DNA of 64,000 nt from a phage (GCA_011911785.1 GCA_011911785.1_4084.1), one strand, 5' to 3'; shown: positions 3,409 through 26,161, numbered from the stretch's first letter. The notes: a model not told the origin generated them from the letters alone. Numbers and translations: made by a program.

Positions 3409-3418
3409 CGAGGAACAT

Positions 3419-4439: not shown

Positions 4440-4440
4440 T

Positions 4441-5144: not shown

Positions 5145-5146
5145 TT

Positions 5147-5500: not shown

Positions 5501-5883
5501 TGACTTACCGTGATTACTTTTGTATTTTTGAAATTGCAGTATTCGCTTTAGGTTCAGTCTGGTTACTTCTATACTACTTCTGTATTAATCCAGTATTCAA
5601 TTGGGTTCGTCGTGCTGAACAAAGTAGTGCTGGACAAATAGCAGTTGTTATGGGTATGACATATTATATGTTCGCCGTAGCTTCTGTTGTTATTGAAGTA
5701 ATATTTGGTGGCATGAATGGTGATGATGGGGCAACGTTCTATGGATTCGTAACATTCTTTAGTGTGCTGATTCCGTGTGGTGCTCTTATTATTACTGCGT
5801 TCTATTGGCTATATCGTGGTGTTAAGAAGCTGGAATCAATTCACGTAGATATGCGTTCAAAACGAATGGGGATTGACAAATAA
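5500..5883 (+). CDS. Small membrane protein (127 aa)
   Basis: Start overlaps upstream stop; hydrophobic. Confidence 0.5.
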   Translation: MTYRDYFCIFEIAVFALGSVWLLLYYFCINPVFNWVRRAEQSSAGQIAVVMGMTYYMFAVASVVIEVIFGGMNGDDGATFYGFVTFFSVLIPCGALIITAFYWLYRGVKKLESIHVDMRSKRMGIDK

Positions 5884-6434: not shown

Positions 6435-6435
6435 T

Positions 6436-6465
6436 AAAAAAGCCCACTTAATGTGGGCTTTTTGT
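6436..6465. terminator. Bidirectional intrinsic terminator between convergent genes
   Basis: AAAAAGCCCAC-ttaat-GTGGGCTTTTT; A-run and T-run flank the hairpin. Confidence 0.75.
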
Positions 6466-9398: not shown

Positions 9399-9618
9399 GT
9401 TTATATCCTCATAAATTGATACCAATTCTAATGTATTTACCCACTTAAAGTACAAAAAATGATCAATTAAATGGGGAATCTTTAACAAATGAATTCATGA
9501 TGTACTTGATGAATTGCCCATACCAACGGATTCCCCAGTCCCAGCATACCACATGGTATTATCGAACTTTTTTATCATTGTAGTATCATAACCACACCAA
9601 ACATCATCAACATTAGTA

Positions 9619-10971: not shown

Positions 10972-11002
10972 ATATCCTCCTTTATTCATTATATTATATT
11001 TA
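10972..11002 (-). promoter_or_regulatory. Conserved leader ATTAAATATAATATAATGAATAAAGGAGG (AT-rich box + RBS)
   Basis: Near-identical leader precedes all nine MLPFVRM paralogs; promoter identity not resolved. Confidence 0.5.
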
Positions 11003-11035
11003 ATCAAAAAAGAAAAGCCAGTACAGAGTACTGGC
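11003..11035 (-). terminator. Intrinsic terminator GCCAGTAC-tct-GTACTGGC + T-run
   Basis: 8-bp stem followed by TTTTCTTTTTT on minus strand. Confidence 0.7.
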
Positions 11036-11046
11036 ATTTAAAATAA

Positions 11047-12222: not shown

Positions 12223-12292
12223 ATTCCCTCCTTTATTCATTATACTATATTTAATCAAAAAGAAATGCCAGCATCAAGTACTGGCGAAATTA

Positions 12293-13483
12293 TTACAATT
12301 GTCTAGGTGTATCCAGAACATATCTATTTGTACTAGGACCACCATCATCATACGTTCCGGTTGAATATATATTTTTCATATCAGCAGTTAAAAATGTACG
12401 ATACGAACCTCTATATATTTTTATTTTATCATACATAGAATATGTTATTTGTGCTGGCAGTGGACATGCAGTAAATCTACCAATAGTAACATTAGAACCA
12501 ACACCCAATGTACCAGCATAACTACTCTCATTTAAACCAGTTGCATATACACCAGTACTCGTAACTAGTATACTAGATTGTGTTGGATATCCAGTATGGA
12601 TTGAATACAACGTGCCAGTTGGTAGAGTAGTACTATTATTTCCTAATACTGCTAGTGCTGTACTAGTCGTAGTGTTATTACCCCATGCACCATTCCTAGC
12701 TAAACCACCCACAAGGAACTGGCGTGCTCCTGTACTTGGATTTTCAACTAAAGCACTGACCGCACCACTTGAACAACCAGTGTATTGTAACGTTTTTGTA
12801 TATGTTGTACTTGGCTGATATAAAGTATATTCATTATAGGGAGTCCATGTGGTACTGGTACTTATACCTGACGTACCACCACCAATATATAAATTATTTT
12901 GTGTATCAAAAAACATTACACAGTTATTTGTTGACTGTATTTGTGCAATATCAACATTAGGCGTGACAGCTTTTACAAATGATCCATCTGTTATTTGTTG
13001 AGTACTACCAGTACCATCAGCGAATTGTCTAGCCCCACTCCAACCAGTACTCCATATTGTATTATTATCCATTAATACCGTAAACCACGTAGTACCTCCA
13101 TACATCTGTTTAATTGAAGTACTTGAACTTTGCGTGTACAAATTTTCAATATATTGGTTATAACTTAAAAACGTAGTAGTACTAGTTGGTAAACCAATAT
13201 GATCACCATATCCACAATAAAAATAATTTGAGTCATTATCTTTTACTAATAAAGTTCCTTGTGTAACCCAGCAATCATTAACGTTTTCTCTAATTAATGT
13301 CCATGATTTTAATGCAGTGTTGTTTCCCCTCCCAAATTTCCCAAAACTATTATCCCCACGTGCATATAGTTGACCATCCGTATACAGAACAACAACATCT
13401 AAATCAGTTGGGATTATTTTCTTAATTTGAAGTGGTACTGGGGTAATATTCCCATAATCAAATAATCTAACAAAAGGTAACAT
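12293..13483 (-). CDS. RCC1-like repeat protein, MLPFVRLFDYGN paralog (396 aa)
   Basis: GDNSFGKFGRGNN motif; conserved leader. Confidence 0.65.
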   Translation of the reverse strand: MLPFVRLFDYGNITPVPLQIKKIIPTDLDVVVLYTDGQLYARGDNSFGKFGRGNNTALKSWTLIRENVNDCWVTQGTLLVKDNDSNYFYCGYGDHIGLPTSTTTFLSYNQYIENLYTQSSSTSIKQMYGGTTWFTVLMDNNTIWSTGWSGARQFADGTGSTQQITDGSFVKAVTPNVDIAQIQSTNNCVMFFDTQNNLYIGGGTSGISTSTTWTPYNEYTLYQPSTTYTKTLQYTGCSSGAVSALVENPSTGARQFLVGGLARNGAWGNNTTTSTALAVLGNNSTTLPTGTLYSIHTGYPTQSSILVTSTGVYATGLNESSYAGTLGVGSNVTIGRFTACPLPAQITYSMYDKIKIYRGSYRTFLTADMKNIYSTGTYDDGGPSTNRYVLDTPRQL

Positions 13484-13516
13484 ATATTCCTCCTTTATTC
13501 ATTATACTATATTTAC

Positions 13517-13548
13517 CCCAAAAAGAAATGCCAGTATCAAGTACTGGC
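13517..13548 (-). terminator. Intrinsic terminator GCCAGTA-cttga-TACTGGC + U-rich tract
   Basis: Read directly on minus strand. Confidence 0.6.
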
Positions 13549-13554
13549 CTATAT

Positions 13555-14724
13555 TTAAACTGGTGAATCTAATACAAATTCTAAACTACTAATGCCACCA
13601 TATGTGACATTTGTCCCTGTGCTATATACAAAATTACCATCAGTTATATAAGTTCGGTTATACCCACCTGCCATCTGCGACTTACTATAATCAAACCCAT
13701 CAGGAACGATTGCTTTGGTATATACTAATGCATTATTAGATGTACCAATACCTAACATACCAGCTTCTGAAGATTTATTGTAGCCGCAACAATATATACC
13801 ATCTGTTGTAGCAATAACTTGGTTATAATATGAAGTAATGTTAGCAATGCTTACTACATCACCGGGTGGCATTAGTGAAGCAGTTTGAACCTCAAATGCT
13901 CTATAATCACTGAGAGAACCATTTATCCCATCTGCTTGTGCACCAAATATTCTCGAACCGCCATTTGCGATGATGGTTTTACCAGTGGGATCAGTACCAA
14001 TTGCCATTGCCATTGAAGTACTATTCTCCATATAGTACTTGATATTAATTGTATTTCTTAAGCTGGTAGGAGCACCATAATATATAGTATATAACTTACC
14101 TCCTGAACTTGTAACTGCATTTACTCTTCCTGTATAAAATAGCCATCCTTGGTTTGTAACATAACCGTGCATTAAATTACTTGCAAACAATTTAACAGGT
14201 AATTGATCTGCTGCGGTCGGAACAGTACTTTTGACGAATTTTCTAGCAACATTGTTAGTTGTTGTCCCATCACCCAACTGACCATCACCCCCTGCTCCAG
14301 TACTCCATATTGTTTGGTCTGTTAGTAATACACTTGTAGTCTGATAACTAACTGCTATATCTAATATTGGTAATGTTAACGTATCGAATGTTGGCATAGC
14401 AGAAGTCCATATTGATACTGCTGCCCCTGGCATACCAACAGTTGTTGAACTTCCACTGTACCATATTTCATCATTGCTTTTCTTAATAACTATCGACGTG
14501 GCTCCCATCCAAAAATCTTGAACATCAGAAGTGCTAAAAGTCCATGTAGTAACAATATTTTTGTGACCTAAACCCAAAAGACCATTTGCATTCTCACCAC
14601 GCACATATAAATCACCACTGTTTGTTAAAACAGCAACATTATAGTTGTTAGCTAGTATTTTTTTAATATTTGGTTTAGCAGGTGCAATATTCCCATACTC
14701 TAACATTCTTACAAAAGGTAACAT
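13555..14724 (-). CDS. RCC1-like repeat protein, MLPFVRMLEYGN paralog (389 aa)
   Basis: GDGQLGDG and GLLGLGH motifs; track start 14856 rejected. Confidence 0.65.
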   Translation of the reverse strand: MLPFVRMLEYGNIAPAKPNIKKILANNYNVAVLTNSGDLYVRGENANGLLGLGHKNIVTTWTFSTSDVQDFWMGATSIVIKKSNDEIWYSGSSTTVGMPGAAVSIWTSAMPTFDTLTLPILDIAVSYQTTSVLLTDQTIWSTGAGGDGQLGDGTTTNNVARKFVKSTVPTAADQLPVKLFASNLMHGYVTNQGWLFYTGRVNAVTSSGGKLYTIYYGAPTSLRNTINIKYYMENSTSMAMAIGTDPTGKTIIANGGSRIFGAQADGINGSLSDYRAFEVQTASLMPPGDVVSIANITSYYNQVIATTDGIYCCGYNKSSEAGMLGIGTSNNALVYTKAIVPDGFDYSKSQMAGGYNRTYITDGNFVYSTGTNVTYGGISSLEFVLDSPV

Positions 14725-14757
14725 AATTCCTCCTTTATTCATTATATTATATTTAAT

Positions 14758-14789
14758 CCAAATAAGAAAGCCAGTATCAAGTACTGGCT
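14758..14789 (-). terminator. Intrinsic terminator AGCCAGTA-cttga-TACTGGCT + U-rich tract
   Basis: Read directly on minus strand. Confidence 0.6.
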
Positions 14790-14794
14790 TTAAT

Positions 14795-15943
14795 TCATTG
14801 TATAAATGACATATCAACTTCGGTATATCTTGTAGTGTACTGCCCAGAACTTCCACCCATTACTAGATTGGAAAAACCAGTATAAAATAACTTACCTTCA
14901 TCTGTGAGAATCAAACTACCGATGTTATTCAGTACTAAACTGTAAGAACTATTAAAATTAGCATAGGACTGGGTATAATAGAACTGATTTGTAAGATTAC
15001 CAACACCCAATTGTCCACCAGTGTTAACCCCAGTTGCAAATATCGTAGTACCAAATCTGCGAATATGCGAGGCCATATTGCCGACGCAACAATGTACATT
15101 CTGAACATCCGAATTCAATAAAGTTGGTGTTGTGTATTGCTTAAGTGTTGTGCCTGTACCGAATTCATTACCATATGATACCCCATACTGTGTACCACAA
15201 GCGTACAATTTATTATCATCTTTAATAAAAAATGTACTCTGATAACTTACATCGACATCTATAACATTAGTCTGTATTCTAACAACTCCAGTACTAGCAG
15301 TTTGATTGCCTGTCCCTAACTGATAGTAAGTGTTAATACCACAACCCCATAATGTATTATCTTCTTTTAGGTATATGTTACCAACAGCTTTTTTTACCGA
15401 TGATATGGCTTCAATCTTAACAAAGGCGTTAAATGAATTTGTATTTGTGCCATTACCAAAAGATGATCTGGTTGATGTGCTGTTTGTTCCGCAGCAATAT
15501 AAAGTACCATCAGTTGTTATCAAATTCACTTTAAGATCACTGTAACTACTCATGTATTTTATATCAGAAACATTAATACCACTGGATGTTATCCATGAAG
15601 TACAATCTGTCCACGTGTTATAATATGCACCTGAACCAGAAAACGCACTCGGACTTCCTGTTATAAACACTTTTCCAGTACCGTCTTCTTCATATAATTG
15701 ACAACCACTACTGTTATTTTCCAAAAGAACTCTTTTAACATTAGTTGCACTAAGAATAAATTTACTTGACGATACACCAGTCCCCGTACCCTGACTGACT
15801 GCTGCTGAAGCATACAAATTTTTAGTGTATGTATCATGAAAATACATAGCACTACCACCGGAATATATTTTAAAACGTGTACTAGGATCTGGTGGAATTG
15901 GTGCAATATTCCCATAATCTAACATTCTTACAAAAGGTAACAT
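14795..15943 (-). CDS. RCC1-like repeat protein, MLPFVRMLDYGN paralog (382 aa)
   Basis: YYQLGTGNQ and GGQLGVGN motifs; track start 16105 rejected. Confidence 0.65.
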   Translation of the reverse strand: MLPFVRMLDYGNIAPIPPDPSTRFKIYSGGSAMYFHDTYTKNLYASAAVSQGTGTGVSSSKFILSATNVKRVLLENNSSGCQLYEEDGTGKVFITGSPSAFSGSGAYYNTWTDCTSWITSSGINVSDIKYMSSYSDLKVNLITTDGTLYCCGTNSTSTRSSFGNGTNTNSFNAFVKIEAISSVKKAVGNIYLKEDNTLWGCGINTYYQLGTGNQTASTGVVRIQTNVIDVDVSYQSTFFIKDDNKLYACGTQYGVSYGNEFGTGTTLKQYTTPTLLNSDVQNVHCCVGNMASHIRRFGTTIFATGVNTGGQLGVGNLTNQFYYTQSYANFNSSYSLVLNNIGSLILTDEGKLFYTGFSNLVMGGSSGQYTTRYTEVDMSFIQ

Positions 15944-16013
15944 AATTCCTCCTTTATTCATTATATTATATTTAATCCAAATAAGAAAGCCAGTATCAAG
16001 TACTGGCATTATG

Positions 16014-17123
16014 TTATTTTGGTAAATCAATTTTAGTAAAGACTGCAACATCCTCGCTTGCACCGGGAATGGCGTAATACGTTCCAGTACTATATACATC
16101 TCCATTTTTGGTTAATATTGAAGTCAAACCATCACTAAAAAGAACATCCCTAATCTCACTAACTTCAACGGGTAATTGTAAATTTGTAGCACTATATATA
16201 GCACCAGTTTGAGAATTGTTTAATCCCAAACCACGGTTCGCCCCAACACCCTTCTGATATGTACTGGTAATTACCATTTGTGTAGCAGTATTTAATGCAG
16301 GTGAATTCGTCATAAACAACGGAGAACTATTAGGAAAAGTACTTGCAGGAACTGCACGGAATGTAGTCGTGCCTGAACTAAGAAAGTTTGGAGTTTGACC
16401 ACATACGAAATATGATGTACCATTATAGTAATTAAATGCATTACCACCAATGGCTGCATCGATTACACCAGAACTACGTAATCCCCAAGTGTTAATTTGT
16501 GTTTGGTCCCCTGTACCATGCTGCCCACTGCTATTCCATCCAGAACTATATAGCTTATTATCTAATGTAATATACATACTATCATTTGCATTAGTCATTA
16601 CTTTACGCACGTTAGTAGCACATTGAGTTAATGTGTAAATCGATGATGAGCCAATACCTAAAGAACCACGATATCCATTATCTCCTGCACCATAGAGTAC
16701 TGAACTAGTGCTAAGTACAAATATTAAACCATTTGTACATACAATATTAGCAATTTCACTCACTGGTATAGCATTGGTAAACCAATTAGTCCTTTCAACT
16801 AATATAGTACTGTAAGAAGTAGTTGTAGAAGATGAGAACCAGTACGTTTCACCCGATGTCCATATCGTATTATCATTTTTAATAATAACAAGTGTACGAC
16901 CACCCACGAAAAAATTAGAAACATCTGAACTTACTAATATCCATGAAGATACCGTGTTGTTATTACCATTTCCAGATTCACCACCTTGATTTCTACCTAT
17001 GTAATATAAATCATGTGAATCAGTCAATAAGAATTGACCTTGTGTAGAAGCACCAACTTTAATTATATTTTTAGGACCAGGTACAATATTCCCATACTCT
17101 AACATTCTAACAAAAGGTAACAT
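16014..17123 (-). CDS. RCC1-like repeat protein, MLPFVRMLEYGN paralog (369 aa)
   Basis: SGQHGTGD motif; conserved leader. Confidence 0.65.
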   Translation of the reverse strand: MLPFVRMLEYGNIVPGPKNIIKVGASTQGQFLLTDSHDLYYIGRNQGGESGNGNNNTVSSWILVSSDVSNFFVGGRTLVIIKNDNTIWTSGETYWFSSSTTTSYSTILVERTNWFTNAIPVSEIANIVCTNGLIFVLSTSSVLYGAGDNGYRGSLGIGSSSIYTLTQCATNVRKVMTNANDSMYITLDNKLYSSGWNSSGQHGTGDQTQINTWGLRSSGVIDAAIGGNAFNYYNGTSYFVCGQTPNFLSSGTTTFRAVPASTFPNSSPLFMTNSPALNTATQMVITSTYQKGVGANRGLGLNNSQTGAIYSATNLQLPVEVSEIRDVLFSDGLTSILTKNGDVYSTGTYYAIPGASEDVAVFTKIDLPK

Positions 17124-17195
17124 AATTCCTCCTTTATTCATTATACTATATTTAATACAAATAAGAAAAGCCAGTACAGAGTACTGGCTATTATA

Positions 17196-18338
17196 TTATT
17201 TCCACGGTAGAAGTGAATCAGGAACTCTGGTTGGTACTCTAACGGCTGGAACATTTCCAAGTTCAGGTAAACCACTCATATACAAATTGTTATTTTCATC
17301 AATTATCATTGAATAGAAATTATCAATTACGAAGCCTGAAATTCGTCTTCCTTCTAATGCATCAAGAACCATTTCGGTGAAAGTTAGTATATTTTCGGAT
17401 GTTTGATTAACACCACATGCACCATAGGTATTTCGACCACAAGTATATAACTTATTATTATTTTTAACAACACATCCATTCCCTTCGTTGTTGGATAAAC
17501 CACCCACCAACTCTATTTCACCTTGGAATGATAAATTGGGAATTAATGTACTCATTGGTACTGCTGATACTCTACCTACACCAGCTTGACCATATGCATT
17601 TGGTGAAGCAACCTTCACTGAACCATCATTAAGAAATATATATGAAGTACGGTATGTATTTACAGCTTGTATAGCATTGGTGATCGTATTGTCTTTTGTA
17701 AAACTTAATATATTTGATGTTGTTGTACTACCAGGAGCAACAGTATTTCCTGCATACCAATAGGAGCCATCATCAAGTACTAACCCAGTACTGAGCAAAG
17801 AACAGCCATAACTTTTAACATTTTCTATAGTGCTGTATCTGAACGATGTGACATTAGCTGTTGACGCGTTACCAAATACACCACCTTCGCCAGCACCACA
17901 GTAGAACCATTTTCCATTTTTTAAAAATACACGCAAATTCTGCCCAACAGCAATACCATCAATATCATCAGCACTGACACCAAAATCAGTGAAGTACTGG
18001 GTTACATCAATCCAAACCCCATTTGTATTTGTTCCGATTTGTGGCATTACTATACTAGCACCTGTGAACCAAATAGTTCCATCATTCTTAATGGCAATGG
18101 AACCAAGAACACCACCCCAGTAACGTTCAATATTATTATTCACACGGGTCCATACGGTGGATGATTGTAATGAACCATTACCACCTTGTCCAAATGAAGA
18201 TGAACCATACCAGTACAAGTCACCATTAACATGCAAATAAAAACGAGTATTATAATTTGCTTGTAATCTATTTTTAAATAGAGGTTTTGGTTCTGGTGCT
18301 TCATTTCCATACTCTAACATTCTAGCAAAAGGTAACAT
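17196..18338 (-). CDS. RCC1-like repeat protein, MLPFARMLEYGN paralog (380 aa)
   Basis: YGQAGVGR motif; close paralog of 18412-19554. Confidence 0.65.
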   Translation of the reverse strand: MLPFARMLEYGNEAPEPKPLFKNRLQANYNTRFYLHVNGDLYWYGSSSFGQGGNGSLQSSTVWTRVNNNIERYWGGVLGSIAIKNDGTIWFTGASIVMPQIGTNTNGVWIDVTQYFTDFGVSADDIDGIAVGQNLRVFLKNGKWFYCGAGEGGVFGNASTANVTSFRYSTIENVKSYGCSLLSTGLVLDDGSYWYAGNTVAPGSTTTSNILSFTKDNTITNAIQAVNTYRTSYIFLNDGSVKVASPNAYGQAGVGRVSAVPMSTLIPNLSFQGEIELVGGLSNNEGNGCVVKNNNKLYTCGRNTYGACGVNQTSENILTFTEMVLDALEGRRISGFVIDNFYSMIIDENNNLYMSGLPELGNVPAVRVPTRVPDSLLPWK

Positions 18339-18411
18339 AATTTCCTCCTTTATTCATTATACTATATTTAATACAAATAAGAAAAGCCAGTACAGAGTAC
18401 TGGCTATTATA

Positions 18412-19554
18412 TTATTTCCACGGTAGAAGTGAATCAGGAACCCTTGTCGGTACATTTGTAGTAGACACCCCATCAAGATTTGGTACACCGCATGTATATA
18501 AATTATCAGCATCGTCAACTAACATCGTATAGTTATATCCCCTACAAAAACTACTAACATTACGACCTTCTAATGCAGTAAGAATCATTTCAGTGAATGT
18601 TGTTATATTTGTCGAGGTTGAACCAACACCACATTGTCCATTTGAATTAAGACCACATAAAAATAACTTATTATCATTTTTAATTATACAGGATGGTCCA
18701 GTAAGGTTTGTACCAAGCTCACCCACTAACTCTATTTCACCTTGGAATGCTAAATTTGGAATTAATGTACTCATAGGGGCTGGTGTTGTATTCCCAGTAC
18801 CTGCTTGACCACGTTCGTTGGAAGATGCAACTTTAACTGTTCCATCACTAAGAAATATATAGGAAGTTTCAATTGTATTGACTGCTTTAATTGCAGTGCT
18901 GATAGAAGTTTCTTGTGTAAATCTTAGCACGTTTTGTGCTGACGTTCCCGATATAAACGTATTACCTGCATACCAATATGTACCATCATTGAGTACTAAT
19001 GCAGTACTTCGAATTGCACAACCAGCACTTCGAACATTTTCTATAGTACTGTACGTGAATTGTGAAACGCTTGCCGATGAACCATTTCCGAATACACCAC
19101 CACTCCCAGCACCACAGAAGAACCACTTTCCATTTTTCAAAAATACACGCATACACGCAGATATAACAATACTATCAATATCATCAGCACTGACACCGAA
19201 ATCAGCAAAGTGCGATGTCACATCAACCCAAACACCGTTAGTGTTTGATGCAATTACTGGAATAACAGAACTTGTACCAGTGTACCAAATAGTACCATCT
19301 TTCTTTATCGCTATTGTTCCTTGAACACCACCCCAATATCGTACAACATTTGTATTGACGAGAGTCCATGCGGTTGAAGAGTTCAATGAACCATTACCAC
19401 CTTGACCATATGATGAAGAACCAAACCAATATAGATTACCATTGGTGTGTAAATAAAATTTGGCATCTGCCGAGCATTGTAACCTATTTTTTAATCGTGG
19501 TGCGGGTTCCGGTGCAATATTCCCGTACTCTAACATTCTTGCAAAAGGTAACAT
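18412..19554 (-). CDS. RCC1-like repeat protein, MLPFARMLEYGN paralog (380 aa)
   Basis: RGQAGTGN motif; RBS directly follows upstream stop, no terminator. Confidence 0.65.
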   Translation of the reverse strand: MLPFARMLEYGNIAPEPAPRLKNRLQCSADAKFYLHTNGNLYWFGSSSYGQGGNGSLNSSTAWTLVNTNVVRYWGGVQGTIAIKKDGTIWYTGTSSVIPVIASNTNGVWVDVTSHFADFGVSADDIDSIVISACMRVFLKNGKWFFCGAGSGGVFGNGSSASVSQFTYSTIENVRSAGCAIRSTALVLNDGTYWYAGNTFISGTSAQNVLRFTQETSISTAIKAVNTIETSYIFLSDGTVKVASSNERGQAGTGNTTPAPMSTLIPNLAFQGEIELVGELGTNLTGPSCIIKNDNKLFLCGLNSNGQCGVGSTSTNITTFTEMILTALEGRNVSSFCRGYNYTMLVDDADNLYTCGVPNLDGVSTTNVPTRVPDSLLPWK

Positions 19555-19566
19555 AATTCCTCCATA

Positions 19567-20463
19567 TTATTTAAAAACATACTGCGTATTAACACGAGTG
19601 CCATTGTCAAAACCAAGTACATAAAATATCTCAGCACTATTCTTAGAACCAAATAACGCACCAGTACTACTACTCAAAGTAGTATTAACCGCTAAGGGAA
19701 TCCATATGTCTTCTTCTGCATCGTATCTCAATAAATTTAATGCACCATACGACACTGCATATATATTTTTATCATATGTACTGTAACATATTTTACTAGG
19801 GTTATTACCACCAACTGGTGCTATGTTAGACCACACCGCACTTTGTATATGATATTTTTGTGCAGTACTAGTACCTTGACCAGTAATATATATGTAAGTA
19901 CCATCCGTACACATATCACCACCTCCATTGTTATTTGTTCCATCACTTGTACCTAATGATGACCATGTATTAGTACTTGGAGTATAACTGTATAACGAAT
20001 TATTAGTAGGCGAACCCCACAAATATATCTTATCCCCAGCAGTAATCATCTTACTATACGCCAGTTGACTAGGCTTCCCAATACTGTTAGTGTTCAGAAT
20101 CCATGTATTTGTACTTATATTATATACATAAAAATTATTACTACTATTACCTGAACCACCAAACAAATATATTTTTCCCTGATAAGCACATAACGCACTA
20201 CCAAATGTAGATACAGGTGCATTGGCTAATTGTGACCACGTTCTTGTAGTTAAATTAAAACTCCATAACTGATTATCCGTCTGCACCGCATTCTGTATAC
20301 CACCAAATATATAAGCAATATTACTTTCCGCATCATACGTATAACCAAAGTTATTTCGTGCTGAAGGTACTGGTGTTGTAGTAAATTGTGTTCGTACTCC
20401 ACCATTTGGGCCAGGTAATGGACCTACATTCCCGAACTCAAACATTCTAACAAAAGGTAACAT
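19567..20463 (-). CDS. Kelch/beta-propeller-like repeat protein with N-terminus MLPFVRMFEFGN (298 aa); first gene of the array
   Basis: Repeated YIFGG / IYLFGG / IYLWG motifs; conserved leader. Confidence 0.6.
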   Translation of the reverse strand: MLPFVRMFEFGNVGPLPGPNGGVRTQFTTTPVPSARNNFGYTYDAESNIAYIFGGIQNAVQTDNQLWSFNLTTRTWSQLANAPVSTFGSALCAYQGKIYLFGGSGNSSNNFYVYNISTNTWILNTNSIGKPSQLAYSKMITAGDKIYLWGSPTNNSLYSYTPSTNTWSSLGTSDGTNNNGGGDMCTDGTYIYITGQGTSTAQKYHIQSAVWSNIAPVGGNNPSKICYSTYDKNIYAVSYGALNLLRYDAEEDIWIPLAVNTTLSSSTGALFGSKNSAEIFYVLGFDNGTRVNTQYVFK

Positions 20464-20511
20464 AATTCCTCCTTTATTCATTATACTATATTTAATCAAA
20501 AAAGAAAACCC

Positions 20512-20540
20512 TTGACACCCTTTCAGTACTGATGTACTAT
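20512..20540 (+). promoter_or_regulatory. Sigma70-type promoter TTGACA-17-TACTAT for the F3 array, in a divergent region
   Basis: Read directly; RBS TAAGGAG follows. Confidence 0.55.
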
Positions 20541-20565
20541 ATGAGAAATCTAAGGAGAATCGTAC

Positions 20566-20793
20566 ATGCCATATGCTCTAAAGTACTACATCAATGAACT
20601 AAATGAACTAGAGTACGCAAAGGTTCTCTCTGACCAATCGTGGCTAATTGAACTAAAAAATCATAAGAGCACAGGGTGTAACCTTATGCTTGGTAGTGCA
20701 CTGAATACCCTTACTGTGAGCATTGTACACAATACACTATTAGGGGATACCCGTAAACAATTTTTAAACATCTTAGTACTAGTGGCTATATGA
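20566..20793 (+). CDS. F3 family small protein (75 aa)
   Basis: First gene after promoter. Confidence 0.5.
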   Translation: MPYALKYYINELNELEYAKVLSDQSWLIELKNHKSTGCNLMLGSALNTLTVSIVHNTLLGDTRKQFLNILVLVAI

Positions 20794-20990
20794 ACATTAA
20801 CCCGTACTACATCAATGCATTGCACCCTGGGCTACAAGATGCAATGAAGAACCAAAAAACAGTACTGAAAAATGCTAAACGCATACCAGGACTCCTGAAC
20901 TCAAACAGGAATAACCTCATATGGAATGCAATAGAAGGTAACGAAAGTATGCAGTACTATTTCATCTTAACACTACTATTGGAGTACTAA
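20790..20990 (+). CDS. F3 family small protein (66 aa)
   Basis: N-term PYYINAL, C-term YYFILTLLLEY; start/stop overlap. Confidence 0.5.
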   Translation: MNINPYYINALHPGLQDAMKNQKTVLKNAKRIPGLLNSNRNNLIWNAIEGNESMQYYFILTLLLEY

Positions 20991-20991
20991 T

Positions 20992-21201
20992 ATGAATACT
21001 GAACATAAAGAATTCTACACCAAATACCTCAGCAACGAAGAACAAATGTTTCTAAGGAGTGTACCACCTGTAAGTATAGACACACCCAACACAAGGAATT
21101 GCTTTAATAATTGTATACGTAGTACTCTAGAAGCTATTGAATGCAATAACAAAAATATGCAGTACTCAAGTTTAATCGGACTAATATACTTCTATGAATA
21201 A
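20992..21201 (+). CDS. F3 family small protein (69 aa)
   Basis: N-term HKEFYTKYL, C-term LIYFYE. Confidence 0.5.
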   Translation: MNTEHKEFYTKYLSNEEQMFLRSVPPVSIDTPNTRNCFNNCIRSTLEAIECNNKNMQYSSLIGLIYFYE

Positions 21202-21385
21202 TCATAAAGATTTCTACTGTAGTAAACTACACGAACAATACAGGGACTCATTCCCTCAAGAACCTATGAGAAAGAATAGTCCCTTTTATAATTACGATTT
21301 CAGGTTGGAGACACGTTATGCAATAGAACAACCATTTACTTCAACTAAGTACCGCTCTATCCTGAACCTCATCTTTAAGTTCTAA
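21194..21385 (+). CDS. F3 family small protein (63 aa)
   Basis: N-term HKDFY, C-term LNLIFKF. Confidence 0.5.
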   Translation: MNNHKDFYCSKLHEQYRDSFPQEPMRKNSPFYNYDFRLETRYAIEQPFTSTKYRSILNLIFKF

Positions 21386-21396
21386 AAAGGTACTAT

Positions 21397-21609
21397 ATGA
21401 AAACTACAAACATTCATCAGTACTACATAGATATTCTCCCTAAAGATATACAGTTCATACTTAAACAAGAATTCAGTACTTTTTAAAAACTTAAAAGAAC
21501 CGCACCGAATGTACTCATCCAGCACCAAAAAAATGTCGTGCGTAATATTCTACAAGGTGCAACAGGGACCGAGTACTTTAATATAGTAAGGCTAATTACA
21601 TTACAATGA
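21397..21609 (+). pseudogene. F3 family member interrupted by in-frame TAA at 21484-21486
   Basis: Reading frame continues in the same frame after the stop and ends ..EYFNIVRLITLQ with family-like C-terminus. Confidence 0.45.
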
Positions 21610-24221: not shown

Positions 24222-24339
24222 TTAAACACATATAGCTAGGGGAAGCTCCGTAGTGCAAGCATTATACAGGCTTTAACATATGTTGCATATGTTAAAATTC
24301 AGCCTGGACAAATGCGATCACTAGGATTCTCCCCAGGCT

Positions 24340-24400
24340 AAACCCCGTAATCATAGGTAGTCATAAGTAATCATATATAAACATTTAAGTAATCATTTAT
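24340..24400. repeat. Cluster of direct 8-mer repeats GTAATCAT (4-5 copies)
   Basis: Read directly in non-coding region. Confidence 0.6.
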
Positions 24401-24613
24401 AATCATTGCAGTGAAGAGTATTGAGTACTGTTTCCCCTATATGATTCAGTACTGATATCCCACTAAGTAGGCAAATGAAGTCGCCCAAAATTTACATAAT
24501 TTTACAGTACTGAACAATTGCAAAACAAATCATTTCCAATCAAAAGTAATCACGGAATGACCAGTACTGAAAACTCCCAATCACCTATTCAAAAAAGTTC
24601 AATTTACCCTTTG

Positions 24614-24656
24614 TCAAAAATCCCGAATACCCATTGGGGAAAATTCCGAATACCCC
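24614..24656. repeat. Direct repeat AAAAT(C/T)CCGAATACCC, 2 copies
   Basis: Read directly. Confidence 0.6.
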
Positions 24657-24851
24657 TTGAGGCTCCAGCAAAAAGTTGGTTAGTACTCCATTGTAAATCT
24701 GGATCGTAAAAATTTTGGAGTACCTATGAAATAAAAGTTGGATCTTCGAAAGTTGAAATTTACATTGGGACATATAGGATTAGTGGGATATAATGAGTTT
24801 TGAAGAGATACAGAAGATATGTTTTCAGTACTGAATAATGAAAGAAATCTA

Positions 24852-24879
24852 TTGACATTATGATTCAGTACTGTATAAT
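24852..24879 (+). promoter_or_regulatory. Orphan sigma70 promoter TTGACA-16-TGTATAAT (extended -10)
   Basis: No CDS within 1.2 kb downstream. Confidence 0.5.
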
Positions 24880-25280
24880 GTTCTACATAGAGTGATGGAT
24901 TGCCGCAAACAATTCAGAGCCTTAACCCTCCTGTCGTGAGACAGTACAGAAGAGATTGAATCCTCCTATGCAGTGGTTCATCTTTGACAACCTCTTTTTT
25001 CGTAATATAAACAGTACTGTTATTAACAGAATGGTAGCAGTACTGATATTAATCTAATATAATGTTACCATGCAATGTGGTGAATTTCCCTTAACAGTAT
25101 TCAGTACTACATGATAGTCTTCATCCTCCTAGGGTAACATAGTGAGGGCTATTGTGGCAGTACTGAATACTCCTTTCACAAGATAGATCTATGGTATAGT
25201 ACTGACGGATTTTGGGCGTAGTAACCCTGGGTGGATTTTGGACGTAGAGATGCCTAGCCCTCCAGAAGTCTGGAAGTAAA

Positions 25281-25409
25281 GATGGCTATCCCTCTAGACG
25301 GCTGGATGGCTAGATTTCTAGATGGCTGTACTGCTAGACGTTTGGACGGCTAAACGGCTAAACGGCTAAACGGCTAGATGGTTAAACGTCTGGATGTATA
25401 GACGGCTAA
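25281..25409. repeat. Iteron-like array of 8-bp direct repeats (AAACGGCT x3 tandem plus about 8 degenerate copies), followed by an AT-rich tract
   Basis: GGCTAAACGGCTAAACGGCTAAACGGCTAGATGG and flanking variants read directly. Confidence 0.7.
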
Positions 25410-25566
25410 ATCAAAATTTTTATTTTGTTTTTTCCAATAGTTCCCCTACCGCGTGGGGATGGTTTCCCCGCAGTATCTGGAGTTAGATTTTTCTGAATCT
25501 GGAATCATTATCTAATAAACTGGGGGCAATGTCAACCGCCTGGATGAATATTTTTAAAAATAATCT

Positions 25567-25646
25567 AGTACTGAATTTTGGGCGTAACTATGCACCCGGT
25601 GGGCTAGAGTCTTTCTCGACTTGATGAAATAATTATAGCAGTACTG
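25567..25646. repeat. ~80-bp repeat element (copy 1) containing GCACCCGGTGGGC and TAATTATA, flanked by AGTACTG
   Basis: Related copies at 25786-25868 and 29147-29230. Confidence 0.55.
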
Positions 25647-25785
25647 AATGATAAAAGCAATAGCCTAAGTGTAAAAAGTTTTAATTAATTTGCTTGCCAT
25701 CCTGGGGCGTACTATGGTACTATGATTCAGTACTGAGAAAGTGCTTTTACCTGCTAGGGTGCGGGAGTGTATCCTTTTTAAATTT

Positions 25786-25868
25786 ACTGAATTTTGGGCG
25801 TAGTTCCGCACCCCCTGGGGTATCCGCTTTCTCGCGTCTATGTAGTAATTATACGCTTTTTTAGTACT
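25786..25868. repeat. ~80-bp repeat element (copy 2)
   Basis: Aligns with 25567-25646. Confidence 0.5.
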
Positions 25869-26077
25869 GAGTCAATAGCTAAAAACAAAATAATTGAAAA
25901 TAATTTAACGCGTTTAAATGGCCCGTAAAGCCCTGGATTGTTGGGAGTGGTGCAAATGTATAGCTTAGGTGTATTAATGCGTTAGAATGCGTATGAGGCC
26001 GTTTTAAGGGTATAGTACTGAATAATAGTACTCCTATATAGAAAGAAAACTATTTTAAAAAGTATTTGTAGAAAGTA

Positions 26078-26106
26078 CTTGCAAAGTATTGGGAAAGGTG
26101 TAGAAT
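26078..26106 (+). promoter_or_regulatory. Type-B early promoter CTTGCA-17-TAGAAT; 5' stem-loop at 26120-26138
   Basis: A-rich upstream tract; hairpin AGCGGGAA-cac-TTCCCGCT in the leader. Confidence 0.55.
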
Positions 26107-26161
26107 GTTTTACATCGAGAGCGGGAACACTTCCCGCTACACTTTAAGAGAGATTAAAACG

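What the first reader, a model, noticed from the sequence alone, without database searches (positions are those of the whole stretch)
24222..26100. 1.9-kb non-coding island with iterons, an orphan promoter and repeat elements: candidate replication origin and/or small-RNA locus
No credible ORF spans this region. It contains a GTAATCAT 8-mer cluster (24340-24400), a duplicated AAAAT(C/T)CCGAATACCC (24614-24656), a consensus extended -10 promoter with nothing downstream (24852-24879), an iteron-like array of AAACGGCT-type repeats (25281-25409) followed by an AT-rich tract, and two copies of an ~80-bp element. In T4, origins combine promoters, iterons and unwinding elements, and the tRNA/small-RNA cluster lies in the denV/e neighbourhood, but no tRNA-like cloverleaf or T-loop signature was seen here.
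Basis: partly seen in the sequence, partly recalled or inferred. Interest (0 to 1): 0.65.

Follow-up and report, generated by a model that had tools for sequence, protein, structure and literature searches.

The report
Jumbo-phage genome end and repeat leader
This gene-free 1.9-kb stretch most likely holds the point where the linear DNA of a giant E. coli phage begins, at the edge of its 20-kb terminal repeat, and it carries conserved end, promoter and small structured-RNA signals rather than a demonstrable T4-style origin.

Summary
The window is not T4. It comes from an Asteriusvirus jumbo coliphage (121Q/PBECO4/A4 group).

Six relatives were deposited with their direct terminal repeats (DTRs). 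One of them had its ends confirmed by PhageTerm and restriction digests. All six start at the same bases, and these map to window 24466. So 24222-24465 is the last unique DNA and 24466-26161 is the non-coding first 1.7 kb of a DTR of about 20.1 kb. The predicted right edge is at 44602|44603.

Rak2-like phages of at least five groups keep the same module order:
- a cut-site context of CAGTACTG..CCRCTA^ followed by N11-GARGTCGC;
- short motif repeats;
- an early-class sigma-70 promoter;
- an 8-bp tandem array, whose type also sits next to the ends of T7-like and T5-like DTR phages;
- a hairpin whose stem covaries between genera;
- promoter-coupled two-hairpin RNA motifs.

It has eight clear copies and one marginal copy in the window, all inside the DTR, with compensatory changes in one helix and G-C/G-U changes in the other.

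There are no tRNAs, no Rfam matches, no DnaA boxes and no long AT-rich unwinding tract. An origin is untested rather than excluded. The position of the end is known from relatives, but I found no description of the leader layout or the RNA motif.

The parts
24222..24465 (.). Pre-terminus segment: the last ~244 bp of unique DNA before the terminal repeat. It holds the GTAATCAT cluster (24347-24407) and the cut-site approach CAGTACTG (24447-24454)-N4-CCCACTA (24459-24465).
   Evidence: The records of relatives that carry DTRs begin only after this segment. CAGTACTG-N(5-12)-CCRCTA immediately precedes the end in the window, G17, GAP32 and Kaldavass.
24466..24485 (+). Predicted physical left end of virion DNA (cut between 24465 and 24466, CTA^AG) with the terminal motif AGTAGGCAAATGAAGTCGCC. 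GAAGTCGC lies at 24477-24484, which is genome nt +12 to +19.
   Evidence: Six independent DTR-bearing records start with AGTAGGCAGAGGAAGTCTGCC. [quoted passage not shown] (G/A)AAGTCG(C/A) starts at +12 in the window, Muenster, CBB, BF and pEa12. GAAGTCGC occurs only once in the 64-kb window.
24616..24730 (+). Sub-terminal motif repeats: AAAATCCCGAATACCC and AAAATTCCGAATACCC (24616-24655), and AAATTTTGGAGTACC (about 24711-24730).
   Evidence: TRF row 24605-24659. Related AAAATCYGRAT and AAATTTTGGAGTACC motifs lie at the same distance from the end in Muenster, Munch, CBB and BF. Segment 24651-24850 is 84-96% identical to relatives.
24852..24879 (+). First early-class sigma-70 promoter, 387-414 nt from the end and reading inward: TTGACA-16-TATAAT followed by GTTCTACAT.
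   Evidence: 12 of 12 consensus match. 98-100% conserved. One of 10 TATAATGTTYTACAT sites, all on + and all in the DTR. Strong inward promoters lie 270-400 nt from the end in Muenster, Munch, CBB and BF.
24884..25000 (+). Short non-coding stretch transcribed from that promoter: hairpin CTGTC-GTGA-GACAG (24931-24944) and a T-run (24995-25000). It could be a short transcript or a leader.
   Evidence: Sequence. G17 carries an ARNOLD-predicted terminator in roughly this part of its leader; I did not map it base by base. The fold is no more stable than shuffles, z = 0.0, so RNA structure is not supported here.
25208..25248 (+). Two copies of RATTTTGGRYGTA just before the array. Two further copies lie at 25574 and 25790.
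   Evidence: There are 4 matches in the whole window, all in the island and all on +. GAATTTTGGGTGTAC directly precedes the array in CBB and BF.
25281..25409 (+). Tandem array of about 14 units of 8 bp (CTAGACGG, CTGGATGG, CTAAACGG...), 816-944 nt from the end. This is a sub-terminal repeat array.
   Evidence: TRF. The same unit family lies 640-850 nt from the left end in CBB, BF and pEa12, and also in GAP32, T7-like PGT2 (nt 42-108 of its 260-bp DTR) and T5-like Pontus. Indels come in multiples of 8.
25410..25477 (.). T-run, then conserved box TTCCAATAGTTCCCCTACCGCG (25432-25453), hairpin GGGG-ATGGTTT-CCCC (25455-25469) and GCAGTATC (25470-25477).
   Evidence: The flanks are conserved across several genera while the stem covaries: GGGG/CCCC, AGGG/CCCT, GGAAT/ATTCC, CTGG/CCAG, CTAGT/ACTAG, CTGGT/ACCAG. 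92-98% identical within the genus.
25507..25535 (-). Leftward sigma-70 promoter TTGACA-17-GATAAT, reading through the hairpin and array toward the genome end.
   Evidence: 11 of 12 match. By eye, the same TTGACA-N17-GATAAT is present in Munch and a TTGTTT-N17-TATGAT in Muenster (sequences). The downstream transcript 25500-25400 folds with z = -3.1.
25566..25659 (-). RNA-motif copy c1 (25566-25629) with its leftward promoter (-10 at 25631-25636, weak -35 TTGCTT).
   Evidence: Covariance model hit, 68 bits. Alignment and pair counts.
25694..25788 (+). Rightward promoter (25694-25723) and RNA-motif copy c2' (25725-25788). Its second helix plus a T-run looks like a terminator (25756-25785).
   Evidence: Promoter and terminator scan. 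Model hit, 36 bits. Together with c2 it forms a long inverted repeat that folds at -44.5 kcal/mol, z = -3.5.
25782..25875 (-). RNA-motif copy c2 (25782-25845) with leftward promoter TTGACT-16-TATAAT (25875-25848).
   Evidence: 11 of 12 promoter match. Model hit, 75.7 bits. 25804-25855 is 94% identical to Salmonella phages Munch, 7t3 and PHA46.
26079..26161 (+). Promoter (TTGCAA-16-TAGAAT), 5'-UTR hairpin and ribosome-binding region of the first DTR gene (CDS 26162-26524). This marks the end of the non-coding leader.
   Evidence: PHROG 7352 aligns from residue 18.
44595..44610 (+). Predicted right edge of the terminal repeat, GGTAATGCT|TAGCTGCG, with the cut between 44602 and 44603. The DTR would be 24466-44602, 20,137 bp.
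   Evidence: The right boundaries of CBB, Muenster, fEgEco12, vB_Ec-M-J and G17 all read ..GTAAC/GGNCT|TAGC... GTAANNCTTAGC occurs twice in the window, and this copy is at the expected place. This is inference by motif; the surrounding 700 bp differ from G17.

Best explanation
The island is the non-coding junction and leader at the left boundary of the ~20-kb direct terminal repeat (DTR) of an Asteriusvirus jumbo phage.

Mature virion DNA is predicted to begin at window 24466, cut as CTA^AGTAGGCA. The first 244 bp of the island are therefore the tail of the unique region. The other 1.7 kb are the first DNA of each repeat copy, upstream of all the early genes that fill the repeat.

The leader is a stack of cis-acting signals kept in the same order in Rak2-like phages of several genera:
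1. A conserved cut-site context, CAGTACTG-N-CCRCTA^N11-GARGTCGC.
2. Short sub-terminal motif repeats.
3. The first early-class host sigma-70 promoter, reading inward.
4. A tandem 8-bp array of the kind found beside the ends of T7-like and T5-like DTR phages.
5. A hairpin with covarying stems.
6. Leftward and rightward promoters, each coupled to a ~64-nt two-hairpin RNA motif. Four copies lie in the island, and the window has eight clear copies plus one marginal one, all inside the DTR.

What is shown: the mapping of the end by homology, the conservation, the repeats, the promoters as consensus matches, and the covariation.

What is inferred:
- The terminal ~45 bp and the 8-bp array are recognition and processing signals for terminase and for duplication of the repeat. 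Both mature 5' ends follow a CTA on opposite strands at the two DTR edges, which fits a staggered-nick and strand-displacement scheme.
- The promoters fire as soon as the end enters the cell.
- The two-hairpin RNAs act either as 5' leaders in cis (stabilising or anti-terminating, like put RNA) or as small RNAs.
For: - **Identity.** 42 phage records match the island. The best is phage A4 at 95.5%, and all are Asteriusvirus-like. The gap is unannotated in 121Q, G17 and A4.
- **Left end.** G17, vB_Ec-M-J (DTR annotated 1..21525), BF17, fEgEco12, WPEC5 and CRJP21 all have a record end starting AGTAGGCAGAGGAAGTCTGCC, which aligns to window 24466. The two G17 repeat copies are identical over 20,668 bp.
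- **Published ends.** fEgEco12 by PhageTerm plus restriction digests, DTR 20,993 bp (PMC13070987). Sharanji by PhageTerm, 20,668 bp (PMC11895373). G17 by coverage (PMC6563267). CBB, 22,456 bp (PMC5259590).
- **Boundary motifs** are conserved across genera on both edges. The window has the right-edge motif at 44602|44603.
- **Module order** is shared with Muenster, Munch, CBB, BF, GAP32, pEa12 and Kaldavass.
- **Conservation.** Leader segments are 84-100% identical to 121Q, G17 and fEgEco12. The downstream CDS is 88-93% and the upstream CDSs 56-82%.
- **Array type** occurs next to ends in PGT2, phiKT, KPV811, Pontus and AhSzq-1.
- **Early-class promoters.** 10 of 10 TATAATGTTYTACAT sites lie in 24874-43710.
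- **RNA motif.** Helix 1 has double changes at all 4 pairs: 28 cells against 9.1 +/- 2.5 in shuffles, 0 of 500 shuffles as high. RNAalifold finds both helices on its own. With 29 copies, 90% of cells pair and helix 2 is 98.6% paired through G-C/G-U and U-A/U-G changes. All window hits with E < 0.02 lie inside 24466-44602.
Against: - No reads or virion DNA of this particular phage were available. The end at 24466 and especially the right edge at 44602 rest on homology and motif matching. The 700 bp around the right edge differ from G17.
- No experiment links the array, the hairpin or the terminal motif to terminase.
- The cut-site details (CTA^) are not shared by T7-like PGT2.
- In Klebsiella phage Muenster and Salmonella phage Munch the array position holds different, Fur-box-like repeats. 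The 8-bp unit itself is therefore not universally required.
- Thermodynamic support for the individual RNAs is weak, z between -1.1 and -1.8.
- The 29-copy alignment was fitted to the model, so its pair counts lean toward the structure.
- No transcript data exist for this group. The model finds nothing in the DTR of PA5oct, where ncRNAs were seen by RNA-seq.
Confidence: 0.8

Rival explanations
1. Replication origin. Repeats bind an initiator, promoters supply a primer or R-loop, and a nearby AT-rich tract melts. This could hold alone or in addition to the terminal functions.
For: - Within the window, cumulative GC skew has its minimum exactly at the island. Skew is -0.19 at 22-24 kb and +0.14 at 25-27 kb, although + strand genes already begin near 20.5 kb.
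- The island has dense promoters on both strands, including leftward ones with no gene.
- It has a tandem repeat array followed by a T-run.
- The non-coding DNA is strongly conserved.
- From my own knowledge, T7 has a secondary origin at its left-end promoter.
Against: - The repeat unit is 8 bp in head-to-tail contact, unlike 17-22 bp iterons.
- There are no DnaA boxes (TTWTNCACA), no IHF consensus and no 40-bp window of >=87.5% A+T after the array.
- No initiator-like gene is adjacent.
- The same array type sits inside a 260-bp terminal repeat of a T7-like phage.
- In Muenster and Munch other repeats replace the array.
- A skew switch is expected anyway at the physical end of a linear genome whose two arms differ in gene orientation and composition, and 64 kb cannot show the global minimum.
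Confidence: 0.2
2. The island is primarily a small-RNA gene cluster. Its main product would be a set of ~60-110-nt RNAs made from the motif-linked promoters, acting in trans on host or phage targets. Its position at the genome end would be incidental.
For: - Four motif copies lie in the island, each with its own promoter.
- A fifth copy at 29152-29215 (-) runs into a bidirectional terminator, which gives a complete unit of ~110 nt.
- Helix 1 covaries and helix 2 is rich in G-U pairs in the sense orientation of each promoter, whichever genomic strand it is on.
- The distant relative PA5oct makes abundant ncRNAs from its DTR (PMC7318152).
Against: - Most copies lack a terminator. On the + strand they lie directly upstream of the next early promoter and gene, which fits a cis leader as well as a free sRNA.
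- Fold z-scores are weak.
- There is no Rfam family, no hit in PA5oct and no expression data.
- This reading does not explain the terminal motif, the array or the covarying hairpin.
Confidence: 0.3
3. DNA-entry control region like the T5 injection-stop signal. [quoted passage not shown] It could then hold the DNA at the envelope until early proteins are made.
For: T5 has a 1.2-kb untranslated, repeat-rich region that lies mostly inside the terminal repeat and overruns the boundary by 270 bp. It is more conserved than the neighbouring genes (bioRxiv 10.1101/866236; T5 annotation). Here 1.7 kb lie inside and 244 bp outside, with the same pattern of conservation. The T5-like phage Pontus carries the 8-bp array type next to DnaA boxes.
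Against: There are no DnaA boxes here. T5's own DRD repeats are dispersed 15-mers, not an 8-bp array. Two-step transfer has not been reported for Rak2-like phages in the papers I searched. The order of entry is unknown. All early promoters point away from this end, which fits the island's end entering first.
Confidence: 0.1
4. Decayed coding DNA or a neutral spacer between the paralogous small-ORF array and the early genes, with chance repeats.
For: Short ORFs exist, and some depositors annotate 5-7 hypothetical proteins here. Part of the pre-terminus and 24466-24650 is variable, at 72-73% identity with indels.
Against: Most of the leader is as conserved as coding DNA or more so. Module order is kept across genera. 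Two kinds of hairpin covary. The ORFs are broken in relatives and have no family.
Confidence: 0.03

Closest known systems
Left end and concatemer junction of phage T7/T3 (terminal repeat, flanking short-repeat arrays, early promoters A0-A3 near the end). The T7 details come from my own knowledge of Dunn & Studier 1983 and Chung & Hinkle 1990, which are not in the searchable library.
   Same: Fixed ends with an exact direct terminal repeat. Arrays of short tandem repeats lie next to the end. Strong host-RNAP promoters within the first few hundred bp read inward. The region is non-coding. The T7-like phage PGT2 has the same 8-bp unit family and GAGGTCGC at nt +12 to +19.
   Different: The repeat is ~20 kb instead of 160-260 bp and carries roughly 50 early genes. 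The array lies ~0.8 kb from the end. The CTA^ cut context is not shared with PGT2. The leader also holds leftward promoters and a multi-copy RNA motif. No phage RNA polymerase promoters are involved as far as can be seen.
Phage T5 left terminal repeat, untranslated Repeat Region 3 / injection stop signal (Davison, bioRxiv 10.1101/866236; AY587007 annotation)
   Same: A repeat-rich untranslated region of more than 1 kb straddles a boundary of a long terminal repeat. It is more conserved than the neighbouring ORFs and is full of direct and inverted repeats and palindromes.
   Different: T5 has paired DnaA boxes and dispersed 15-bp DRD repeats. This island has no DnaA box and a contiguous 8-bp array. 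In T5 the region is at the inner edge of the left repeat. No sequence homology was detected to T5 itself.
Published direct terminal repeats of Rak2-like jumbo phages (CBB, G17, Sharanji, fEgEco12, vB_Ec-M-J, Muenster, PA5oct)
   Same: Same phage group. The repeat is ~20-22 kb in the enterobacterial members and 39 kb in PA5oct. The left-end sequence is the same within Asteriusvirus, and early genes with sigma-70 promoters lie inside the repeat.
   Different: Those papers report the length and existence of the repeats. In the text I searched and read they do not describe the non-coding leader, the conserved boundary motifs, the array or the RNA motif.
HK022 put RNA: a promoter-proximal, two-stem-loop, cis-acting antitermination RNA (my own knowledge; analogy only)
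   Same: An RNA of ~60-70 nt with two stem-loops is encoded immediately downstream of early promoters, in a region with many intrinsic terminators.
   Different: There is no sequence relationship and no evidence of antitermination. The motif is present in many copies and on both strands, some pointing at the genome end.
T4 origins oriF/oriG and iteron-type plasmid or phage origins
   Same: Promoters, repeats and a T-rich run lie close together in non-coding DNA.
   Different: This is not a T4 relative. The repeat unit is 8 bp. There is no DnaA box, no long unwinding element and no initiator gene.

Membership tests
Terminal non-coding region at a direct-terminal-repeat (DTR) genome end | The sequence lies at the boundary between unique DNA and an exact terminal repeat of virion DNA | tested here: met
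   Met by homology. Six DTR-bearing relatives end at the base that aligns to window 24466. G17's repeat copies are identical over 20,668 bp. The fEgEco12 ends were verified experimentally.
Terminal non-coding region at a direct-terminal-repeat (DTR) genome end | Fixed ends shown for this phage itself by read starts, twofold coverage or end fragments | not testable with these tools
   Only the assembled window is available, with no reads and no DNA.
Terminal non-coding region at a direct-terminal-repeat (DTR) genome end | Conserved sequence context at both repeat boundaries | tested here: met
   Left: CAGTACTG..CCRCTA^N11-GARGTCGM. Right: GTAAC/GGNCT^TAGC..GTATTAC. Both hold across Asteriusvirus, Alcyoneusvirus and Mimasvirus, and the left context also in Eneladusvirus. 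The window carries both.
Terminal non-coding region at a direct-terminal-repeat (DTR) genome end | Early genes and host-type promoters inside the repeat, reading away from the end | tested here: met
   All 10 early-class promoters are on + in 24874-43710. The small ORFs downstream are on +. CBB and PA5oct report the same.
Terminal non-coding region at a direct-terminal-repeat (DTR) genome end | Sub-terminal arrays of short tandem repeats, as in T7-like phages | tested here: met
   The array is at 25293-25408. The same unit family lies at nt 42-108 of PGT2 and 640-850 nt from the end in CBB, BF and pEa12.
Iteron-type replication origin | Iterons of about 17-22 bp in helical phase | tested here: not met
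   The period is 8 bp and units are contiguous.
Iteron-type replication origin | DnaA boxes, IHF site and an AT-rich unwinding element nearby | tested here: not met
   There are 0 DnaA boxes and 0 IHF consensus sites in the island. The only windows of >=87.5% A+T are at the GTAATCAT cluster, not after the array.
Iteron-type replication origin | Adjacent initiator (Rep) gene | tested here: inconclusive
   The flanking ORFs are small hypothetical proteins (PHROG 11711 and 7352, function unknown). I did not run a deeper homology search.
Iteron-type replication origin | Strand-composition switch at the site | tested here: inconclusive
   The window's cumulative GC-skew minimum is at 23-25 kb. This is confounded by the physical end and by gene content, and only 64 kb can be seen.
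T4-type origin (middle promoter plus downstream unwinding element, R-loop primer) | Membership in the T4 group with a MotA-type middle promoter | tested here: not met
   All hits are Asteriusvirus/Rak2-like phages. The promoters found are sigma-70 -35/-10 types.
Known RNA families (tRNA, tmRNA, Rfam 15) | Match to a curated covariance model or a tRNA cloverleaf | tested here: not met
   ARAGORN finds 0 genes. Rfam has 0 matches at gathering score in 64 kb. In the island there are only chance-level eukaryotic hits with E of 0.4-3.4.
T5 injection stop signal (Repeat Region 3) | Large untranslated repeat region straddling a terminal-repeat boundary | tested here: met
   244 bp lie outside and 1.7 kb inside the DTR. 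T5 has 945 bp inside and 270 bp outside.
T5 injection stop signal (Repeat Region 3) | Paired DnaA boxes in 131-bp inverted repeats | tested here: not met
   No DnaA box.
T5 injection stop signal (Repeat Region 3) | Two-step DNA transfer that stops at the site | not testable with these tools
   This needs infection experiments.
put-like cis-acting antitermination RNA | Two stem-loops encoded directly downstream of a promoter | tested here: met
   Each motif copy starts 8-12 nt after a -10 box. Two helices are supported by covariation and G-U changes.
put-like cis-acting antitermination RNA | Suppression of downstream terminators through RNA polymerase binding | not testable with these tools
   This needs in vitro or in vivo transcription assays.

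The most novel reading that the evidence does not exclude
Rak2-like jumbo phages carry a previously undescribed, DTR-restricted family of promoter-coupled two-hairpin RNAs. The motif is a 5' stem with a GAGAAA-type loop, then CCCACNGGGUGC pairing with a downstream CGCCC or GUAUCC. There are about nine copies per repeat, and several point toward the genome end. They could act on the transcribing polymerase in a put-like way or as small RNAs during host take-over.

In addition, the genome ends of these phages may share a recognition code with some T7-like and T5-like phages: N11-GARGTCGC at the end plus arrays of CTRGAYGG units. If so, one type of end-processing or packaging signal would span three unrelated virion morphologies.
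Probability: 0.35. Interest if true: 0.6.

Novelty: new member of a known kind. Interest (0 to 1): 0.42.

Why it matters
The result fixes where this genome should be opened and how it should be annotated: end at 24466, repeat of ~20.1 kb. Many deposited relatives start at arbitrary points or lack the repeat.

It also turns an "empty" gap into a short list of testable cis-elements for DNA packaging, repeat duplication, DNA entry and early transcription in jumbo phages, where none of these steps is understood.

The conserved boundary motifs would let ends be predicted from sequence alone in related phages. The DTR-restricted RNA motif is a concrete candidate for the first regulatory RNA of this phage group.

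Tried and rejected
- **tRNA and tmRNA scan:** nothing.
- **Rfam:** nothing real at gathering score for the window or at E<=5 for the island.
- **Transcript from the orphan promoter (24884-25004):** no more stable than shuffles, z = 0.0. I dropped the idea of a structured sRNA there.
- **ORFs in the island as missed genes:** rejected. They are broken in relatives and have no PHROG family.
- **DnaA, IHF and AT-rich origin features:** none found.
- **Exact-pattern scan of IMG/VR with GTCTATGTAGTAATTATAC:** it returned Rak2, 121Q and four unrelated contigs. In at least L018/L019 the 19-mer is the -10 and start region of an ordinary strong promoter. This showed that the conserved 19-mer is a leftward promoter, not an RNA 3' end.
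- **Inverted GAAGTCGC just outside the right DTR edge:** present in G17, fEgEco12 and vB_Ec-M-J, weaker in Muenster, absent in CBB and the window. It is therefore not a general rule.
- **Long-range inverted repeat 25735-25834 as a single hairpin:** reinterpreted as two convergent copies of the RNA motif.
- **Covariance model against the PA5oct DTR, which has RNA-seq-supported ncRNAs:** no hit better than E = 0.5.
- **T5 itself:** it lacks the 8-bp array. Its DRD repeats are dispersed 15-mers.
- **Literature:** searches for transcriptomics of Asteriusvirus and for T7 pac literature found nothing usable. The fEgEco12 paper has no note on AGTACT/ScaI.


Full report
**What the window is.** A megablast of 24222-26100 against 50,697 phage records gave 42 hits, all to ~350-kb Escherichia and Salmonella jumbo phages of the 121Q/PBECO4 group (genus Asteriusvirus). 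The best was phage A4 at 95.5%. In 121Q, G17 and A4 the homologous ~1.9 kb is an unannotated gap. It lies between a tandem array of ~60-aa ORFs and a long run of small + strand genes.

**Checking the observation.** The described features are all there.
- Only 30-63-aa ORFs lie in the island. Eight of ten are interrupted in A4, 121Q, G17 or fEgEco12. The two that stay open sit in an almost invariant stretch, start with TTG and match no PHROG family.
- The first real gene starts at 26162.
- Three exact GTAATCAT copies lie at 24347, 24367 and 24389, out of 11 in the window.
- Tandem Repeats Finder reports the 23-bp duplication at 24605-24659 and the 8-bp array at 25293-25408.
- The promoter at 24852-24879 matches the sigma-70 consensus at 12 of 12 positions with a 16-nt spacer. 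It lacks a correctly placed TG, so it is not an extended -10 promoter.
- The two '~80-bp elements' align over 69 bp at about 75% identity.
- The 'AT-rich tract' after the array is only a short T-run.
- There is no tRNA or tmRNA and no Rfam match.

**The main finding: the island holds the physical genome end.** In one search several relatives with longer records (366-384 kb) matched the query at two places, about 20 kb from a record end. Sharanji and CBB were reported to have 20.7-kb and 22.5-kb direct terminal repeats. I fetched the record ends of G17, vB_Ec-M-J, BF17, fEgEco12, WPEC5 and CRJP21.
- All six begin with the same bases, AGTAGGCAGAGGAAGTCTGCCGTACTTT (read in window orientation). 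These align to AGTAGGCAAATGAAGTCGCC starting at window 24466.
- G17's two repeat copies are identical over 20,668 bp.
- vB_Ec-M-J annotates 'Direct Terminal Repeats' 1..21525.
- For fEgEco12 the ends were found with PhageTerm and confirmed by restriction digests (PMC13070987).

So 24222-24465 is the end of the unique region, and 24466-26161 is the non-coding first 1.7 kb of the repeat.

**Both repeat boundaries carry conserved motifs.**
- *Left edge.* The window and G17 read CAGTACTGATATSCCACTA^AGTAGGCA. GAP32 and Kaldavass read CAGTACTG..CCTTCCRCTA^TATCTGTTCCTGAAGTCGAA. In the window, Muenster, CBB, BF and pEa12 the octamer (G/A)AAGTCG(C/A) starts at genome nucleotide +12. GAAGTCGC occurs only once in the 64-kb window.
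- *Right edge.* CBB, Muenster, fEgEco12, vB_Ec-M-J and G17 read ..GTAAC/GGNCT^TAGC..GTATTAC.
- *Window right edge.* The window has GGTAATGCT^TAGCTGCG with the cut after 44602. This predicts a repeat of 20,137 bp. That edge is an inference, because the surrounding 700 bp differ from G17 and include an extra 140-aa ORF.
- *Cut chemistry.* Read on the bottom strand, the right junction is GCTA^AG and the left junction is ACTA^AG. Both mature 5' ends therefore follow a CTA on opposite strands. This would fit staggered nicks followed by strand-displacement copying of the repeat. It is a hypothesis only.

**A conserved leader architecture.** A more sensitive blastn found pieces of the island in other genera, always close to the left end.
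- The 8-bp array region hits CBB 710-847 (inside its annotated repeat), Serratia BF 680-836, pEa_SNUABM_12 670-844, GAP32 and Yersinia fHe-Yen9.
- 25632-25854 hits Klebsiella Rak2, K64-1 and Muenster (Muenster 1156-1383, inside a PhageTerm-predicted repeat).
- 25804-25855 is 94% identical to Salmonella phages Munch, 7t3 and PHA46.

Reading the first 1.8 kb of Muenster, Munch, CBB and BF beside the window (GAP32, pEa12, Kaldavass and EJP2) shows the same order of modules:
1. The end motif.
2. AAAATCYGRAT and AAATTTTGGAGTACC motifs.
3. A strong inward sigma-70 promoter 270-410 nt from the end.
4. GAATTTTGGGYGTA followed by a tandem array.
5. A T-run and the box TTCCATTAGYTCCCCTWCCGCG.
6. A hairpin, then GCAGWATC.
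7. Further promoters with a conserved transcribed element.

In Muenster and Munch the array consists of Fur-box-like GAGAATGATTCTCATTT repeats instead of the 8-bp units.

Within Asteriusvirus, leader segments are 84-100% identical to 121Q, G17 and fEgEco12. The downstream gene is 88-93% identical and the upstream ORFs 56-82%. The array changes length in steps of 8 bp.

**The 'iteron' array is a sub-terminal array type of DTR phages.** The same unit family (CTGGATGG, CTAAATGG, CTGGACGG, CTAGACGT) occupies nt 42-108 of the 260-bp terminal repeat of the T7-like podovirus PGT2. That phage's genome also has GAGGTCGC at +12 to +19. It also occurs in the T5-like Vibrio phage Pontus, next to DnaA boxes, and blastn finds it near record ends of phiKT, KPV811 and Aeromonas AhSzq-1. 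T5 itself lacks it.

This pattern, together with the 8-bp period, the absence of DnaA and IHF sites and the lack of an unwinding tract, argues against a plasmid-like iteron origin. It favours a role in end recognition, packaging or end processing, by analogy with the short-repeat arrays beside the T7 terminal repeat (my own knowledge). That role is not demonstrated.

**A covarying hairpin.** Between the conserved box and GCAGWATC, every genus has a hairpin at the same place but with a different stem:
- GGGG/CCCC in Asteriusvirus (25455-25469);
- AGGG/CCCT in Muenster;
- GGAAT/ATTCC in Munch;
- CTGG/CCAG in CBB and GAP32;
- CTAGT/ACTAG in BF and pEa12;
- CTGGT/ACCAG in Kaldavass.

This is selection for pairing. 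The data do not say whether it acts in DNA or in the leftward transcript from the promoter at 25535-25507 (that transcript folds with z = -3.1).

**The '~80-bp elements' belong to a promoter-coupled RNA motif family.**
- The strongly conserved 19-mer GTCTATGTAGTAATTATAC proved to be the -10 box and start region of a leftward promoter, TTGACT-16-TATAAT at 25875-25848 (11 of 12).
- A third copy lies at 29146-29231 in an intergenic spacer. It has TTGACA-16-TATAAT and runs into a bidirectional terminator.
- An HMM built from the three copies found further copies in all relatives. In CBB, BF and GAP32 these form convergent pairs. This explains the long inverted repeat at 25735-25834 (z = -3.5) as two facing copies.

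In an alignment of 20 copies, a 5' stem with a GAGAAA-type loop shows changes on both sides at all four pairs. Stems seen are AGUC/GACU, CGC/GCG, AGAC/GUCU, GGAG/CUCC, GCC/GGC and CGA/UCG, plus CAAA/UUUG read by eye. That gives 28 compensated cells against 9.1 +/- 2.5 in shuffles, with 0 of 500 shuffles as high, and slid controls are far lower.

RNAalifold predicts this helix on its own. It also predicts a second helix, GGGUG with CGCCC, that varies only by G-C/G-U and U-A/U-G changes.

A covariance model recovers eight window copies at E < 0.001 and one marginal copy:
- 25566-25629 (-)
- 25725-25788 (+)
- 25782-25845 (-)
- 27587-27645 (+)
- 29152-29215 (-)
- 36760-36819 (+)
- 40077-40135 (+)
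- 43148-43210 (+)
- 33330-33390 (+), marginal at E = 0.012

All lie inside the predicted repeat, and each starts 8-12 nt after a -10 box. With 29 copies, 90% of cells pair and helix 2 is 98.6% paired. That alignment was fitted to the model, so its counts lean toward the structure.

G-U-rich pairing in the sense orientation of each promoter, whichever genomic strand it is on, favours an RNA-level structure.

Caveats on the RNA motif:
- Single-sequence fold z-scores are only -1.1 to -1.8.
- Most copies have no terminator.
- No transcript data exist for this group.
- The model finds nothing in the PA5oct repeat, where ncRNAs were seen by RNA-seq.

**The origin question.** Within the window, cumulative GC skew has its minimum at the island. 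This is compatible with an origin. It is equally expected at the physical end of a linear genome, and it is confounded by the unusual composition of the upstream paralog array. No canonical origin feature was found. I rate an origin function as possible but unsupported, at about 0.2.

**How it most likely works.**
- *Shown.* The island is the DTR boundary region. Its modules are conserved. It has early-class promoters in both directions, and it has structured elements under selection.
- *Inferred.* The ~45 bp around 24466, and perhaps the array, direct the cuts that create the ends and allow the repeat to be duplicated. The inward promoter at 24852-24879 is the first to be used when this end enters the cell. 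The two-hairpin motifs modify or stabilise the transcripts that carry them, or are released as small RNAs. Leftward transcription toward the end may assist end processing or replication.

**Novelty and score.** The existence and position of the terminal repeats in this genus are published. In the text I searched and read in the relevant papers, the leader's layout, the boundary motifs, the link to T7-like and T5-like arrays and the RNA motif are not described. The finding is a new member of a known kind, the terminal control region of a DTR phage, with one possibly new component, the RNA motif. I score interest at 0.42.

Noticed in passing
whole window; e.g. 24447-24454, 24866-24873, 25038-25045: The palindrome AGTACT occurs 267 times against 21.7 expected from base composition (12-fold). 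CAGTACTG occurs 62 times against 0.8 expected. It lies in coding and non-coding DNA and inside many promoters (TTGACAGTACTG.., AAAAAGTACTTGCA). Density is 10 per kb in the leader, 6.2 per kb in the rest of the repeat and 2.3-3.1 per kb in the flanking regions at 1-20.5 kb and beyond 44.6 kb. The leaders of Klebsiella, Salmonella, Pectobacterium and Serratia relatives are also full of it. No explanation found.
   Followed up: partly
window ~20900-24221 (+): A tandem array of more than 10 paralogous ORFs of ~60-66 aa (M[HY]KE[YF]Y...LIYRY) ends right at the island. One matches PHROG 11711 (function unknown). The array has strongly negative GC skew although it is on the + strand.
   Followed up: partly
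L011 (Muenster) 770-900 and 1040-1100; L012 (Munch) 690-800: In Klebsiella phage Muenster and Salmonella phage Munch the position of the 8-bp array is taken by repeats that resemble Fur boxes (GAGAATGATTCTCATTT, GATAATGATTATC). Host iron-regulator sites may therefore lie in the terminal leader.
   Followed up: no
L025/L031 (PGT2 1-500 and right end); L026 (Pontus 480-780): The T7-like phage PGT2 has GAGGTCGC at nt +12 to +19 and the same 8-bp unit family inside its 260-bp terminal repeat. The T5-like phage Pontus has such an array flanked by several GAATTTGCACCT-like repeats and three DnaA-box-like sequences.
   Followed up: partly
window 43095-43150, 40025-40080, 36710-36765, 33280-33335: Intrinsic-terminator hairpins of early genes (AAAAAGGGATTGACTCCGGTCAGTCCCTTTGCTATTAT) contain the -35 box TTGACT of the promoter that drives the next RNA-motif copy. 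Terminator and promoter therefore overlap.
   Followed up: partly
window 44471-45173: The ~700 bp around the predicted right repeat edge do not align with G17. The part just beyond the edge contains an extra 140-aa ORF (44685-45107). The boundary region is a hot spot for insertion or replacement.
   Followed up: partly
window 25792-25812 and homologues: Two alternative versions of the helix-2 region circulate among Asteriusvirus isolates: GGGCGTAGTTCCGCACCC (window, 121Q, G17) and GGACGGATCTTCCCACCC (A4, fEgEco12, CRJP21, like Klebsiella phages). Their distribution does not follow overall relatedness, which suggests recombination within the leader.
   Followed up: no
window 26105-26161: The 139-aa ORF call (26105-26524) is probably too long. 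A4 and 121Q are frameshifted before 26162 and the PHROG profile aligns from residue 18, so the gene likely starts at ATG 26162.
   Followed up: yes
window 26107-26140, 26575-26600 and other early genes: Early promoters share TATAATGTTTTACAT followed by a G+C-rich hairpin in the 5' UTR (for example GAGCGGGAACACTTCCCGCT). This is a general feature of early transcripts in the repeat.
   Followed up: no
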